DNA of 64,000 nucleotides, taken from NCBI RefSeq assembly GCF_009914755.1, contig NC_060931.1, one strand, 5' to 3'. A program made the position numbers and the translations under genes. Below, piece by piece: positions 3,603-10,839 of the stretch (the first letter of the stretch is position 1; each line of letters opens with the position of its first letter). Source of the stretch: the human T2T-CHM13v2.0 reference genome, Homo sapiens. Under the pieces are notes generated by a model. The model was given only the letters and a program-made list of their open reading frames with translations. It was not told where the DNA came from and searched no databases.

Positions 3603-4304
3603 AAAGTAGAAAAAAGGGGGTAGATTTAAATACTCAATAAATAGTACACTACTTGGTAATGGGTGCGCTAAAATCTGACTTCACCACTATACCATTCATC
3701 AATGTAACCAAAAACCACATCTATCCCAGAAGCTATTGAAATTACTTTAAACGTTTTTATTTTTTAAAAATTCAATAAAGTCAGGAAAGGGGAAAAATAA
3801 AACATATAAAAAGATAATAAATAATAAATAAAAAGATAATAAATAGTATAAAATGAAATTAGAAAAATGAACCCAAGTATATCAATAATCATAATAAATT
3901 TAACAAAATGTATTGGTTAGAAGACAAAAATTTTTTATTCCTAAAAATGCTTTTTGCTTTAATGTTTTTCCCCCAATATTAATGTAGCTATCTATTTTCT
4001 TTTCTTAGTTTTATTTTTAATTGACAAATAATAATTAAAATGCATTTATGGTTAAAATGTGATGTTTTGATTTATGTTTATAATGTGGAATGATTAAATC
4101 AGGTTAATAATTAAGAAATCACCACCTCACATAATTAACATTTTTGTGTGTGAAGAAAACATTTAAAATCTACACTTTCAGGCACGGAAAGACAAATTCT
4201 CCATGATTTCACTTCTATGTGAAATTTTAAAATGTTGGACTTACGGAAGTAACGAGTAAAATGATGGTTATCAGCCTTCCTTTCATTTGTGTTCATTTTG
4301 TTTT

Positions 4305-4711
4305 TGAAAGATTCTCCCCAACGCCCGAAAGCTTGAAGGAATGAGTAACTCCTCTCTTCTCAGGCCCAGTCCCAAGGCACAAGGCCACTTGTACCAGCAG
4401 CGTGAGTCAGCAAGATAGCAGAAGCAGGAAGAGAGCCGGCCAGAAGACACCTACCCTGGCCGGAAGACACGTACCCCTGAAGATCGAGAAACAGGCCATC
4501 TGGGTACCACATAGCAGTTACATCAGACTGGGACAATTCCTGTTTACGGAAGACTATAAAACCCTGCCCCCTACTCATTTGGTGCTGACGCCATTTTAGG
4601 CCTTAGCCTGCCTGCACCCAGGCGCTCATTAAAACAGCAGGTTGCTCCACACTGCCTCGTGTTGTCTGTTGGCACACTCTCAAGAGTTTGAACGGATACA
4701 AGAATCTTTCA
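4305..4711 (+). promoter_or_regulatory. 5' LTR (MER48-like), putative NFE4 promoter
   Basis: Direct repeat of 9417-9823. TATAAAA at 4555-4561, ATTAAA at 4628-4633, AP-1/NF-E2 site at 4402-4412, GATA site at 4413-4418. Family name is from recall. Confidence 0.88.
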
Positions 4712-4866
4712 TCTGGTGCCGAAACCCGGGAGGGGCTCCGGTCTTCGTCCCCCGTGGACCTACCCCTCCGCCCCAGAAAGCAGGACACAGCAGCCGGACA
4801 AAGGAAGCTCCTCAGCCTCCAGTTGCTTCTCTGTGCATGCACATCAGTCACTGATCTCACCTACTG
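4652..4866 (+). CDS. NFE4: NFE4 coding exon 1 (CUG start)
   Basis: CTG at 4652 (A at -3) opens (M)PRVVCWHTLKSLNGYKNLSSGAETREGLRSSSPVDLPLRPRKQDTAAGQRKLLSLQLLLCACTSVTDLTY(W), ending at donor TG|GTAAGT. Matches the recalled NF-E4 N-terminus; residue 43 is Lys (4778-4780). Confidence 0.85.
4714..4731 (+). other. Primer binding site complementary to the tRNA-Phe 3' end
   Basis: TGGTGCCGAAACCCGGGA, 2 nt after the LTR end, is the reverse complement of tRNA-Phe ...TCCCGGGTTTCGGCACCA. Confidence 0.92.
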
Positions 4867-5133
4867 GTAAGTTTCCCGGGAGCCCGGTTAACAAGGAAAA
4901 ATCCATACAGCCTCTCTTGGTTTCTCCAGTCTGAAAATCCAACATTGGTCCAAGAAGGCTCCGACGTGTGCCAGGTACTTGCTGATCATCTGGTCTTAGG
5001 GGGACGCCTCTAAGCCATTTGATCCCGTTCCGGGAACGAAAAAGGCAGCGGTGACGATCGCTCCTTTCATCGTCTCCCTCCACCATCCAGGATGGTCTCC
5101 TTTTTCCCTGTTTTCCCGAGCCTACCCTCAGTT

Positions 5134-7252
<2,119 letters not shown>

Positions 7253-8136
7253 TAGTGCCTTGGAACAGACACCCCAGCAACTACCATCGCTTCATCTGAG
7301 CCAAGGGTAACCCTGATGGTGGCAGGTAGGCCAGTATGTTTTTAAAATTAATACCAGGGCAACCTATTCTGCTTTCCCTAATTTTTCAGGACCCACCCAG
7401 TCCTCCCAAGTCTCTATTGTGGAAATTGATGAACAAGCCTCCAAACCCTGAGCCCCCCGCTCCACTTTTCTGCTCCCTGCACACCTTTTCCTTCACTCAC
7501 TCTTTCTTAGTCCTGCCCTCATGCCCAACTCCGCTCCAAGGCATCCTTTCAAAACTCCACACTGCTCTCCACTTCCACGTTCCCCATAATACCCAACGCA
7601 TCAACCCAAACCCCTCTGGGGCTTCTTTCTTCTACTCCAACCTCCCACCTTAAAACATGCAACCTTTCCTTATCCCCCATCTGTAGTTAGCCCCCCTGTT
7701 TGGGGTAATTCCACACCCTCAGTCGCAAAACACCACACTCCCGTCCGTCCACATTACCCTTAAAGAGCCCACCCAGTTCCTATCACAGAAGCAGTATCCC
7801 ATCCCCCAAGCAGCTCTCACAGGCCTAACGCCTATCATTTCTCACCTCCTCGCCAGTCACCTACTCCGCCCAACATACTCCCCTTTTAACACACCAATTC
7901 TACCTGTTAAAAAACCAGATGGAACTTATCGCTTAGTCCAGGACCTCAGGCTTATTAACCAAGCTGTACTCCCAGTATGTCCAGTAGCTCCTAACCCATA
8001 TACTTTACTTTCTGCAGTTCCCTCCAATACCACCCATTTTTCTGTTCTAGACCTAAAGGATGCTTTTTTCACAATTCCATTACACCCTGATTCCCAAAAC
8101 CTCTTTGCCTTTACATGGGAAAACCCCAACACCCAC
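7253..8136 (+). pseudogene. ERV protease and N-terminal reverse transcriptase remnant
   Basis: Degenerate protease site (INTRATYS). RT motifs PFNTPILPVKKPDGTYRLVQDLRLIN and VLDLKDAFFTIPLHPDSQNLFAFTW. Truncated before LPQG/YXDD. Confidence 0.9.
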
Positions 8137-9416: not shown

Positions 9417-9823
9417 TGAAGGATTCTCCCCAGGGCCTGAAAGCTTGAAGGAATGAATAACTCCTCCCTTCTCAGGCCCAGTCCCAAGGCGCAAGGCCAC
9501 TTGTGCCAGCAGTGTGAGTCAGCAAGATAGCAGAAGCAGGAAGAGAGCCGGCCAGAAGACACCTACTCTGACTGGGAGACACGTACCCCTGAAGATTGAG
9601 AAAGAGGCCATCCAGATACCACATAGCAGTTACATCAGACTGGGACATTTCCTGTTTACAGGAGACTATAAAACCCCTGCCCCCTACTCATTTGGTGCTG
9701 ACGCCATTTTAGGCCTCAGCCTGCCTGCACCCAGGTACTCATTAAAACAGCGTGTTGCTCCACACTGCCTCGTGTTGTCTGTTGGCACACTCTCGGGGTT
9801 TGAACTGATACAAGAATCCTTCA
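9417..9823 (+). mobile_element. 3' LTR
   Basis: About 92% identical to the 5' LTR by manual count; followed by TSD GTTTT. Confidence 0.92.
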
Positions 9824-10839
9824 GTTTTGTATTGTATTTTAGTTGGATTTTTAAAGTTTATCTCACAAAGAGGGTGACTACATAATAATTAAAGGTAGCA
9901 ATTCACTAGAGATTATAGCAATCCTAACTATGCAAGCATCTAATAACAAAGCCACAAAGTGACAAGGAGAATCTGACAAATCCACAATCATAATGAAAGA
10001 TAATATCAAAACGATCTCAATACTTGATAGATCAATGCAAGGAAATAAGTCTTCGATTTCTCAGTGCTCCTGTAAAAAGCACTAGCCTCCAGAGGCATGG
10101 AAATCTACATGATATAAAGATAGGTAATTTTACCCTTCACTTACTTTACAAACATTTTACTTTCCACCTACTATTGAAATTAGATCTGTAGTTATTCGTA
10201 GACAAATAGTTATTTGTCTGACAAACAGTTAATTGCTCTGATCCAAAAGAATAATAAAACTTCTCTTACCTCCCCAAGAAAGTCAAATGGTCACAGCCTG
10301 GATTAGTCAAGATTCCAAGGTGTCAGGAAGATCCCTAATTTACATTTCAAGAAGAAATGGGTCCCAGGACCTTGGAGACATGTCTAGGTCATAAAAGCTG
10401 GAGATGCTAGGGCTTACCTGGCCCTTGGAGAGATGCATTCTAAGAAGTCTTGCCTCTCTCTTTTACTTATAAATACCTTTGTGATTTTATTAGATCCACC
10501 CAGATAATCCAGGATAATCTCCCCATTTCAAAATTCTTGATTTAATCAAATCTGAGAAGACTCTTTTGTCACGTAAGGTAACATACTCACAGGTTCTGAG
10601 GACTGGGATATGGACATCTTTGTAGGGGGTGGGGTAATGTTCTACCTACCATACTATATGAGGGAATAATAAACACTAAATTTAAGACAGCAAATACCTC
10701 TGAGGGAGAAAAGAGAATGCAGTCATGGAGGCTTTAATTGTATGTTATGTTTTATTTCTTAAACTGGGTGGTGAGTGTACAGTTGCTCATTAAATTTCTT
10801 TGCATGCCTGAAATATTTTATTGAATAATCTCACTTTTT

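What the first reader, a model, noticed from the sequence alone, without database searches (positions are those of the whole stretch)
4678..4700. The sister LTR acts as an ancestral control and exposes candidate ORF-enabling mutations
Seen: the 3' LTR carries the same CTG CCT CGT...CTC (from 9765) but continues GGG GTT TGA, stopping at 9801-9803 after 12 codons. The 5' LTR has one extra base (CTCAAGAGTTTG vs CTCGGGGTTTG). It also has AAC GGA where the 3' LTR sequence would read AAC TGA in the NFE4 frame. Established: LTRs are identical at integration. Inference: a post-insertion indel, and possibly a substitution, opened the frame. Polarity is unresolved; the 3' TGA could be CpG decay of an ancestral CGA.
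Basis: partly seen in the sequence, partly recalled or inferred. Interest (0 to 1): 0.7.

Follow-up and report, generated by a model that had tools for sequence, protein, structure and literature searches.

The report
Frameshift insertion behind NFE4's start
One extra base, found only in the left-hand repeat of an old retrovirus remnant, puts the annotated start codon of the human NFE4 reading frame in register with viral leader sequence that was already free of stop codons, so the frame was re-joined rather than opened.

Summary
The two LTRs (4305-4711, 9417-9823) belong to one provirus: they share a GTTTT target duplication and are sister branches in a tree. Both carry CTG. The 3' copy stops after 12 codons. 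The 5' copy has one extra base.

Polarity of the indel is now resolved. All 35 paralogous LTRs that cover the site, plus the sister LTR, have the short form. The extra base is therefore an insertion in the 5' LTR. A chimpanzee NFE4 protein has the same N-terminus, so the insertion predates the human-chimp split.

"Opened the frame" overstates it. The leader frame is already stop-free in paralogs and carries its own CTG/TTG. The insertion only joins the annotated CTG to it.

The G/T site (4694/9806) stays unresolved. Paralogs mostly have C, a sense codon.

A second single-base indel that the sister LTR cannot show lies in exon 6986-7325. There NFE4 leaves the gag frame for an alternative frame that is open in 21 of 29 paralogs.

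The 179-codon ORF is U5, primer-binding site, leader and out-of-frame gag. The changes look like ordinary decay. Whether the ORF codes for a protein was not tested here.

The parts
4300..4304 (+). Target-site duplication GTTTT, left copy
   Evidence: Read. The same five bases lie at 9824-9828.
4305..4711 (+). 5' LTR (TG...CA), 407 bases. TATA-like TATAAAA at 4555-4561 and poly(A) signal ATTAAA at 4628-4633. The R/U5 border is near 4649-4651.
   Evidence: ATTAAAAC is kept in 24 of 27 paralogs. Two paralogous copies (L021, L080) end in an A-run straight after TGCTCCA, which marks the poly(A) site.
4630..4632 (+). TAA inside the poly(A) signal. It is the upstream limit of the leader frame in the insertion-less state.
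   Evidence: frame 2 of the 3' LTR reads TH*NSVLLHTASCCLLAHSRGLN*; a stop-to-stop frame starts at 4633.
4652..4654 (+). CTG, the annotated non-AUG start of the 179-codon ORF, with A at -3 and C at +4.
   Evidence: Counting from this CTG makes residue 43 a lysine (AAG 4778-4780). This matches the Lys43 named in a review passage (PMC12535125). Paralogs at this codon: CCG 12, CTG 7, CCA 5, other 3, of 27.
4666..4671 (+). CTG TTG, in frame with the leader frame in insertion-less copies and out of frame in today's 5' LTR.
   Evidence: 3' LTR frame 2...CCLLAHS...; L010 and L017, frame 2.
4679..4690 (+). Block CTCAAGAGTTTG with the extra base. The alignment places it at 4682, but which A of the AA pair was added cannot be told. 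There is also a G-to-A change at 4685 derived on the 5' LTR, and an A/G site at 4683 that varies in the family.
   Evidence: all 27 paralogs have an 11-base block; 8 more paralogs are also short; site 4682, 0 paralogs like the 5' LTR and 27 like the 3'; site 4685, 1 against 26; site 4683, 11 against 15.
4689..4691 (+). TGA that ends the CTG frame in the 3' LTR (9801-9803). In the 5' LTR the insertion puts it out of frame.
   Evidence: TTTGA occurs in 7 of 27 paralogs, TTCGA in 7 and TTCAA in 7. Both NFE4 LTRs have TTTGA.
4694..4696 (+). GGA codon. The 3' LTR has TGA at 9806-9808.
   Evidence: The first base in paralogs is C in 26, G in 4, T in 4 and A in 1, of 35.
4714..4731 (+). Primer-binding site for tRNA-Phe, translated as ORF residues 21-27 (SGAETRE).
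   Evidence: Bases 4717-4731 occur 18 times in the own genome. In 9 of the 15 loci scanned, the match sits at the 3' end of a tRNA-Phe(GAA) gene on the opposite strand.
4732..4866 (+). Retroviral leader up to the splice donor CTACTG|GTAAGT. A TAA at 4868-4870 closes the frame if the RNA is not spliced.
   Evidence: The donor is kept in 5 of 7 leader-bearing paralogs.
6986..7325 (+). Alternative NFE4 exon inside the gag nucleocapsid / start of protease region. With exon 4525-4866 it gives the 179-codon ORF. Internal ATG at 7071-7073 (residue 101) and TAA at 7308-7310.
   Evidence: 179 codons; residue 101 is M. The acceptor AG is present in 24 of 29 paralogs and the donor GT in 25 of 29.
6997..6999 (+). 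Second frame-changing indel. There is one base fewer in the C run (GGCC against GGCCC), so reading leaves the gag frame for the alternative frame.
   Evidence: Acceptor-to-zinc-knuckle distance is 72 bases here. It is 73 in 23 of 29 paralogs, 72 in 4 (only L055 in the same column), 74 in 1 and 69 in 1.
5880..7310 (+). Stop-to-stop frame of 476 codons. It is the gag frame (PPPY motif, capsid) running through the 6998 deletion into the NFE4 alternative frame.
   Evidence: Pfam Gag_p30 matches residues 148-347, E 2.7e-25.
9417..9823 (+). 3' LTR, the insertion-less sister. CTG at 9765-9767, TGA at 9801-9803 and T at 9806. It holds NFE4 exon 9476-9615 of NR_166511.1.
9824..9828 (+). Target-site duplication GTTTT, right copy
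   Evidence: Read.

Best explanation
NFE4's annotated 179-codon frame lies wholly inside one degraded gamma-like endogenous retrovirus primed by tRNA-Phe. After integration, and before the human-chimpanzee split, the 5' LTR gained one base in U5 (placed at 4682). Without that base, the CTG at 4652 reads 12 codons and hits TGA, as the 3' LTR still does. With it, the CTG frame passes that TGA and joins the frame that runs through the rest of U5, the primer-binding site and the leader to the splice donor. That downstream frame was not created by the insertion. It is stop-free in most related proviruses and holds its own CTG and TTG.

A second single-base indel, a loss near 6998 in the alternative exon, then moves reading from the gag nucleocapsid frame into an alternative frame. 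That frame is also open across the family and holds the internal ATG.

The ORF is therefore three pre-existing open stretches stitched together by two accidental frameshifts. Its start codon (CTG, where the family mostly has CCG) looks like CpG decay.

Shown: the polarity of the insertion, the frame arithmetic and the family-wide openness. Inferred: that both indels are neutral decay and that the ORF was defined by them after the fact. Not shown: that ribosomes start at this CTG. That rests on papers I could not read.
For: Insertion polarity:
- 38 paralogous LTR matches were scored, out of 179 first-look candidates. 35 of them cover the site and all 35 have the short form (27). The 3 that are cut off before the site (L021, L080, L087) were dropped.
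- The distance from the start codon to the LTR end is 59 bases in 25 of 27 paralogs and in the 3' LTR. It is 60 in the 5' LTR.

One provirus:
- The flanks share a target-site duplication.
- The two LTRs are sisters at 99/98 support.

Age:
- K2P distance between the LTRs is 0.079.
- The chimpanzee protein P0001 has identical residues 1-44 and differs at 3 of 179 positions.

The leader frame was already open:
- The 3' LTR frame 2 is open from the poly(A)-signal TAA to the TGA made by T9806.
- Among the 7 leader-bearing paralogs, L010 and L017 are open from U5 to the donor TAA. L012, L026, L022 and L030 are open over the parts that their own indels leave in register. L016 has 2 stops.

Second indel and alternative frame: (23 of 29 paralogs have 73 bases; the alternative frame is open in 21 of 29; the ATG is present in 24 of 29).

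Decay looks even on both LTRs: 15 changes derived on the 5' LTR, 14 on the 3' LTR and 3 unclear.

Independent frame joins occur in paralogs: L012 has its own extra T at the LTR/primer-site joint.
Against: - No orthologous DNA from other primates could be reached. The branch on which the insertion arose is therefore bounded only by the integration and by one chimpanzee protein.
- The source labels that chimpanzee protein 'LOW QUALITY PROTEIN ... partial', so its coding sequence may have been adjusted by the annotators.
- Only 38 of 179 LTR candidates were scored.
- Neutrality is inferred, not tested. Three amino-acid differences from chimpanzee say little without the DNA.
- A body of published experimental work treats NF-E4 as a functional protein (passages seen). 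If that holds, the insertion may have mattered.
- The CTG at 4652 has a better -3 base (A) than the CTG at 4666 (T). The insertion could therefore have raised translation rather than being indifferent to it.
Confidence: 0.8

Rival explanations
1. The 5' LTR state is ancestral and the 3' LTR lost a base. The frame was then open in the infecting virus and is shared by paralogs.
For: None found. Both LTRs share CTG and TTTGA, which shows only that these two features predate the split or arose twice.
Against: 35 of 35 informative paralogs have the short form. This rival needs a gain on the stem, then an exact loss in the 3' LTR, plus reversal of the neighbouring G-to-A change at 4685 (1 against 26 paralogs).
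Confidence: 0.02
2. A substitution was also needed. The provirus carried T at the 4694 site (TGA in the leader frame) when it integrated, and the 5' LTR later changed T to G.
For: From the family's usual C, three histories each need two changes. One is C-to-T on the shared stem followed by T-to-G on the 5' LTR. The stem (0.049) is about as long as each tip (0.051 and 0.053). T occurs independently in 4 of 35 paralogs, so CpG decay to T is frequent at this site.
Against: C-to-G on the 5' LTR together with CpG C-to-T on the 3' LTR is equally short and never makes a stop on the 5' side. G occurs in 4 of 35 paralogs (L003, L009, L012, L019). Paralogs offer no means of choosing between these histories.
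Confidence: 0.3
3. The insertion was adaptive. It created a better-initiated p22 NF-E4 protein that was kept by selection as a primate-specific partner of CP2 at the gamma-globin promoter.
For: Published work treats NF-E4 as an activator of gamma-globin and describes Lys43 acetylation (passages in PMC12535125; PMC5709098; PMC3468502). The full 179-codon frame is intact in chimpanzee. CTG 4652 has A at -3. The LTR age of 18-40 million years (using recalled rates) overlaps the period in which anthropoid gamma-globin became fetal; that timing is recalled, not tested.
Against: RefSeq now lists NFE4 as a lncRNA, and its selected transcript gives only 89 codons from this CTG (hub table). Every piece of the ORF is open in many unselected paralogs. 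Derived changes are balanced between the LTRs. Three of 179 residues differ from chimpanzee, which is in the range that I estimate (not computed in any call) for unconstrained sequence. The ORF lies in frames the virus did not use and has no Pfam domain of its own. The only Pfam match on the long frame is Gag_p30, upstream of the exon.
Confidence: 0.15

Closest known systems
Glyco-Gag of murine leukaemia virus and other gammaretroviruses (CUG-initiated reading of the leader). Recalled, not tested against a sequence.
   Same: A CUG codon upstream of gag in a gammaretrovirus-like leader starts a reading frame that runs through sequence usually called untranslated.
   Different: Glyco-Gag is in frame with gag and continues into it. 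Here the leader frame ends at a TAA overlapping the splice donor (4868-4870) in NFE4 and in the leader-bearing paralogs that keep the donor. It reaches coding sequence only by splicing, and it is in register with the CTG only because of a host-era insertion.
Np9 of HERV-K(HML-2) type 1 proviruses (recalled)
   Same: A deletion in an endogenous retrovirus changes splice and frame use, so that a small new protein is read from viral sequence in a frame the virus did not use.
   Different: Np9 arises from a 292-base deletion shared by a whole provirus subtype. The NFE4 frame depends on two single-base indels at one locus.
Domesticated retroviral genes such as the syncytins (recalled)
   Same: A host gene made from a provirus and driven by its LTR.
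   Different: Syncytins keep the viral reading frame and fold. NFE4 uses U5, the primer-binding site, the leader and an out-of-frame stretch of gag.
De novo ORF birth from non-coding or transposon-derived transcripts through enabling indels (general class, recalled)
   Same: A lineage-restricted ORF in previously non-coding or alternative-frame sequence, with a non-canonical start and identifiable frame-setting mutations whose polarity can be inferred from relatives.
   Different: Here paired LTRs and dozens of paralogs serve as built-in outgroups. They show that most of the 'openness' was inherited from the repeat family rather than newly gained.

Membership tests
Single integrated provirus with paired LTRs | Two direct LTRs bounded by TG...CA and flanked by a short target-site duplication | tested here: met
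   LTRs at 4305-4711 and 9417-9823 share 376 of 408 identical columns. GTTTT lies at 4300-4304 and 9824-9828.
Single integrated provirus with paired LTRs | The two LTRs are each other's closest relatives among family copies | tested here: met
   Sister pair with 99/98 support among 29 LTR copies.
Gamma-like (class I) endogenous retrovirus primed by tRNA-Phe | A primer-binding site complementary to the 3' end of tRNA-Phe just after the 5' LTR | tested here: met
   Bases 4717-4731 match the 3' end of tRNA-Phe(GAA) genes in 9 of 15 own-genome loci scanned.
Gamma-like (class I) endogenous retrovirus primed by tRNA-Phe | Gammaretrovirus-type gag, pol and env remnants between the LTRs | tested here: met
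   Gag_p30 E 2.7e-25 and RVT_1 E 4.4e-09 pass their cut-offs. TLV_coat scores 20.3 bits, below its cut-off of 22.5.
Gamma-like (class I) endogenous retrovirus primed by tRNA-Phe | A named Dfam/Repbase family (LTR and internal consensus) | not testable with these tools
   No repeat library is on hand. The family name is left open.
Glyco-Gag-type leader ORF | An upstream CUG in frame with gag, with no stop before the gag AUG | tested here: not met
   The frame ends at TAA 4868-4870. The MGNS... gag start at 5134 lies in another frame, since 5134 minus 4652 is 482, not a multiple of 3.
De novo / overprinted protein-coding gene | The ORF lies in sequence that was non-coding or read in another frame in the ancestor | tested here: met
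   U5, primer-binding site and leader give residues 1-72. The exon 2 frame differs from the gag zinc-knuckle frame.
De novo / overprinted protein-coding gene | Frame-setting mutations are derived in the lineage | tested here: met
   The +1 in U5 is absent from 35 of 35 paralogs. The -1 in exon 2 is absent from 23 of 29 paralogs and in the same column in only 1. The G at 4694 is unresolved.
De novo / overprinted protein-coding gene | Evidence of translation from the annotated start | not testable with these tools
   The primary paper (PMC86334) is not held. The CUG start is recalled. The only support seen is the Lys43 numbering in a review passage.
De novo / overprinted protein-coding gene | Purifying selection on the ORF | tested here: inconclusive
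   3 of 179 residues differ from the chimpanzee protein. No orthologous DNA is available, so no dN/dS could be computed.

The most novel reading that the evidence does not exclude
NF-E4 p22 is a true de novo catarrhine (perhaps hominoid) protein. It was assembled from a retrovirus's U5, primer-binding site, leader and an out-of-frame stretch of gag by two single-base frameshifts and a CpG-decay start codon, and it was then kept because it helped make gamma-globin a fetal gene. The paired LTRs and the paralogs would then give an unusually complete, mutation-by-mutation record of the birth of a transcription cofactor.
Probability: 0.12. Interest if true: 0.8.

Novelty: new member of a known kind. 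Interest (0 to 1): 0.45.

Why it matters
NF-E4 is cited as an activator of fetal globin, yet RefSeq now calls the gene non-coding. The whole ORF turns out to be viral untranslated and out-of-frame sequence. It is stitched by two lineage-specific frameshifts, and every piece is open in many unselected copies elsewhere in the genome. This gives a concrete basis for re-examining whether p22 is made, and from which start.

It also shows the limits of the 'sister LTR as ancestral control' idea. The sister LTR finds the U5 insertion. It cannot polarise that insertion without paralogs, and it cannot see changes in the internal part of the provirus.

I found no paper in the held library that links the NFE4 ORF to a retrovirus. 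Subscription journals and genome-browser repeat tracks were not searchable.

Tried and rejected
- Literature on the CUG start and on any retroviral origin. Nine searches were run. I read passages in 10.1101/433029, PMC12535125, PMC12452803, PMC5709098, PMC9103317, PMC13279136 and PMC3468502. None discusses the origin of the ORF. The bioRxiv/Frontiers paper deals only with an LTR101_Mam element in a 3' UTR of another NFE4 transcript. One search returned only unrelated papers.
- The cloning paper PMC86334 is not held.
- Orthologues. One protein search with the exon 1 peptide, restricted to longer proteins, gave 6 hits among 163 candidates. One is the chimpanzee orthologue. The other five (chimpanzee, macaque and siamang 'NF-E4-like', plus two unnamed) are 67-81% identical. 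They carry paralog-type residues, so I took them to be read from other proviruses and did not use them for dating. No primate DNA collection is available, so the indel could not be mapped on the primate tree.
- Glyco-Gag-like ancestral leader gene: rejected, because the frame stops at the splice donor.
- L003 as a special close outgroup for site 4694: rejected, because the tree is star-like outside the NFE4 pair.
- Selection on the alternative frame in the family. I considered this because only 2 of 29 copies have substitution-made stops in it. I did not pursue it, because the frame is rich in codons that are not one step from a stop.

Full report
**The observation.**
- Both LTRs carry CTG, at 4652-4654 and at 9765-9767.
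- The 3' copy reads 12 codons and then TGA at 9801-9803.
- The 5' block CTCAAGAGTTTG (4679-4690) is one base longer than CTCGGGGTTTG.
- GGA at 4694-4696 stands opposite TGA at 9806-9808.
- A BLAST of the two stretches sets the LTRs at 4305-4711 and 9417-9823, with 376 of 408 identical columns and 2 gaps.

**The premise that these are the two LTRs of one integration.**
- GTTTT flanks the element on both sides, at 4300-4304 and 9824-9828.
- The 5' LTR is followed after two bases by an 18-base primer-binding site (4714-4731). Its 15 bases 4717-4731 occur 18 times in the window's own genome. In 9 of the 15 loci I scanned, they sit at the 3' end of a tRNA-Phe(GAA) gene on the other strand.
- Between the LTRs, Pfam finds Gag_p30 (E 2.7e-25), part of a reverse transcriptase (E 4.4e-09) and a sub-threshold TLV_coat match (20.3 bits against a cut-off of 22.5).
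- In a maximum-likelihood tree of 29 LTR copies the two NFE4 LTRs are sisters (99/98). Their tips are nearly equal (0.053 and 0.051) on a stem of 0.049, and the rest of the tree is star-like.
- The K2P distance between the LTRs is 0.079, from 25 transitions and 5 transversions in 406 sites. With recalled rates of 1.0 to 2.2e-9 per site per year, this gives roughly 18 to 40 million years.

**Polarity of the indel.** No repeat library or primate genome is available, so I used paralogs from the same genome as outgroups.
- A search with the 5' LTR scored 40 matches out of 179 first-look candidates. Two are the NFE4 LTRs themselves.
- Of the 38 paralogs, three stop before the site and were dropped (L021, L080, L087). 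L021 and L080 end in an A-run directly after TGCTCCA, which marks the poly(A) site and puts the R/U5 border at about 4649-4651.
- All 35 remaining copies have the short form: 27, and 8.
- From the start-codon column to the LTR end there are 59 bases in 25 of 27 paralogs and in the 3' LTR. There are 60 in the 5' LTR.
- The extra base is therefore an insertion on the 5' LTR branch.
- Next to the insertion, A4685 is also derived on the 5' LTR (1 paralog like the 5' LTR, 26 like the 3'). A4683 is a site where the family is split 11 to 15, being the CA form of a CpG.
- Which of the two A's was added cannot be told.

**Timing.** A protein search with the exon 1 peptide returned 6 hits among 163 candidates.
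- One hit is a 179-residue chimpanzee protein that its source calls 'LOW QUALITY PROTEIN: NFE4 isoform 2, partial'.
- It is identical to the window's ORF over residues 1-44 and differs at 3 of 179 positions: D45A, N114S and R151Q.
- Identical residues across both indel sites are hard to obtain unless chimpanzee DNA carries both indels. I therefore place both before the human-chimpanzee split, with the caveat that the source's label means the model may have been adjusted.
- The other five hits are 67-81% identical and carry paralog-type residues. I treated them as products of other proviruses.
- Nothing older than chimpanzee could be examined.

**What the insertion does.**
- In the 3' LTR the CTG frame is closed by TGA. 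However, the frame that NFE4 uses downstream of the indel reads TH*NSVLLHTASCCLLAHSRGLN*. It is open from the TAA inside the poly(A) signal (equivalent to 4630-4632) up to the TGA made by T9806, and it contains CTG TTG (equivalent to 4666-4671).
- Seven paralogs among L003-L030 carry the primer-binding site and leader. In L010 and L017 the NFE4-like peptide is open from U5 to the TAA that overlaps the splice donor. In L012, L026, L022 and L030 it is open over the parts that their own indels leave in register. L016 has two stops.
- L012 even joins the CCG frame to the leader frame through its own extra T at the LTR/primer-site joint.
- The leader frame is thus a stop-free stretch common to the family, and a second frame of this GC-rich leader is open as well. 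The insertion re-registers one particular CTG with it and carries that frame past the TGA at 4689-4691.
- The CTG at 4652 has A at -3. The CTG at 4666 has T at -3. The insertion may therefore have improved initiation, but it was not needed for an open frame with a near-cognate start.

**The start codon and the by-passed stop are themselves decay products.**
- At the start codon, paralogs read CCG in 12, CTG in 7, CCA in 5 and other triplets in 3, of 27.
- At the TTTGA that supplies the 3' LTR's stop, they read TTTGA in 7, TTCGA in 7, TTCAA in 7 and other in 6.
- Both NFE4 LTRs share CTG and TTTGA. Either these were on the stem or they arose twice at CpG sites.

**The substitution.** At 4694 the 35 paralogs carry C in 26, G in 4, T in 4 and A in 1. 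From the family's C, three histories each need two changes:
- C-to-G on the 5' LTR and CpG C-to-T on the 3' LTR.
- C-to-T on the stem, then T-to-G on the 5' LTR. This is a true stop-removing change.
- C-to-G on the stem, then G-to-T on the 3' LTR.

The stem and the tips are of similar length, so paralogs cannot decide between these histories. I give the stop-removing history about 0.3.

**A second frame-setting indel.**
- The transcript that RefSeq selects (with exon 2 at 9476-9615, inside the 3' LTR) gives only 89 codons from CTG 4652.
- The 179-codon ORF comes from exon 4525-4866 joined to the alternative exon 6986-7325.
- That numbering agrees with the Lys43 named in a review passage. Residue 43 is AAG at 4778-4780.
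- Exon 6986-7325 lies in the gag nucleocapsid / start of protease region. The zinc-knuckle motif CFKCGNEGHW is read in another frame than NFE4's.
- A search with this exon scored 41 matches, and I examined 29 paralogs (L032-L060).
- From the acceptor to the zinc knuckle there are 73 bases in 23 of 29 paralogs. With 73 bases a spliced reading would continue in the gag frame to gag's own stop.
- NFE4 has 72 bases, one C fewer in the run at 6997-6999. Four paralogs also have 72 (only L055 in the same column), one has 74 and one has 69.
- After that point NFE4 reads an alternative frame for 103 codons, to TAA at 7308-7310.
- This alternative frame is open to the same stop region in 21 of 29 paralogs, and the internal ATG (7071-7073, residue 101) is present in 24 of 29.
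- The acceptor AG is kept in 24 of 29 paralogs and the donor GT in 25 of 29.
- Here too the raw material was open across the family, and a single-base change chose the frame.

**Reading of the whole.** The ORF consists of:
- 10 codons of the CTG frame in U5;
- about 61 codons of the leader frame, including the primer-binding site as residues 21-27;
- four codons shared with gag;
- 103 codons of an alternative frame.

Derived changes are balanced between the LTRs: 15 on the 5' LTR, 14 on the 3' LTR and 3 unclear. Both single-base indels between the LTRs fall on the 5' LTR. The other is one C fewer in the run after the TATA-like motif, placed by the alignment at 4561.

I read the insertion as ordinary decay that happens to define the annotated start. 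Whether p22 is really made from that CTG, and whether it was ever selected, could not be tested here. The primary papers are not held, and the CUG start is recalled. Papers that use NF-E4 antibodies and treat it as an activator were seen only as passages.

**Literature.** No paper in the held library connects the NFE4 ORF with a retrovirus. Subscription journals and repeat annotation tracks were out of reach. It may well be visible to anyone who opens a genome browser.

Noticed in passing
window 9615-9617: The donor of NFE4 exon 9476-9615 reads CCAG|AT in this assembly, not GT. At the matching LTR site (4504) the 5' LTR and 26 of 27 paralogs have G. This may be a human variant that removes the donor of the RefSeq-selected transcript, or a mapped exon end without a real splice site.
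   Followed up: partly
window 5880-7310 (+): A 476-codon stop-to-stop frame. The gag frame (PPPY motif; Gag_p30 at residues 148-347) stays open for about 370 codons in a provirus whose LTRs are 8% apart, then runs through the single-base deletion into the NFE4 frame. There is no ATG near its start.
   Followed up: partly
window about 5206-5505: An Alu-like insert interrupts gag shortly after its MGNS... start at 5134. It is flanked by a near-identical repeat of about 15 bases, AAAACCTG(T/C)AAACCT. No repeat library was available to name it.
   Followed up: no
L021 (C23:130175155-130175498) and L080 (C23:121441194-121441539): Two copies consist of U3 and R ending in an A-run exactly at the LTR's poly(A) site. 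They look like retro-copied polyadenylated transcripts of this family rather than integrated LTRs. A third copy, L087, also ends near that point but was not inspected.
   Followed up: partly
L032-L060, region matching window 7071-7310: A 79-codon ATG-started frame like the short NF-E4 form (MKATGP...SQG) lies out of frame inside gag/protease of other copies of this retrovirus family. The frame is open in 21 of 29 and the ATG is present in 24 of 29; I did not count how many have both. Antibodies or peptides assigned to NFE4 might not be locus-specific.
   Followed up: partly
window 4245-4416 (-): According to the hub's table, alternative FBXL13 exons on the minus strand (4245-4331, 4245-4416) overlap U3 of the 5' LTR (from 4305). 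The LTR therefore also supplies antisense exon sequence to the host gene.
   Followed up: no
window 4778-4780: Lys43, the acetylation site named in a review passage, is AAG here and in paralog L010. The other 6 leader-bearing paralogs read GAG or GAA at that codon, so the residue appears to be a lineage-specific substitution.
   Followed up: partly
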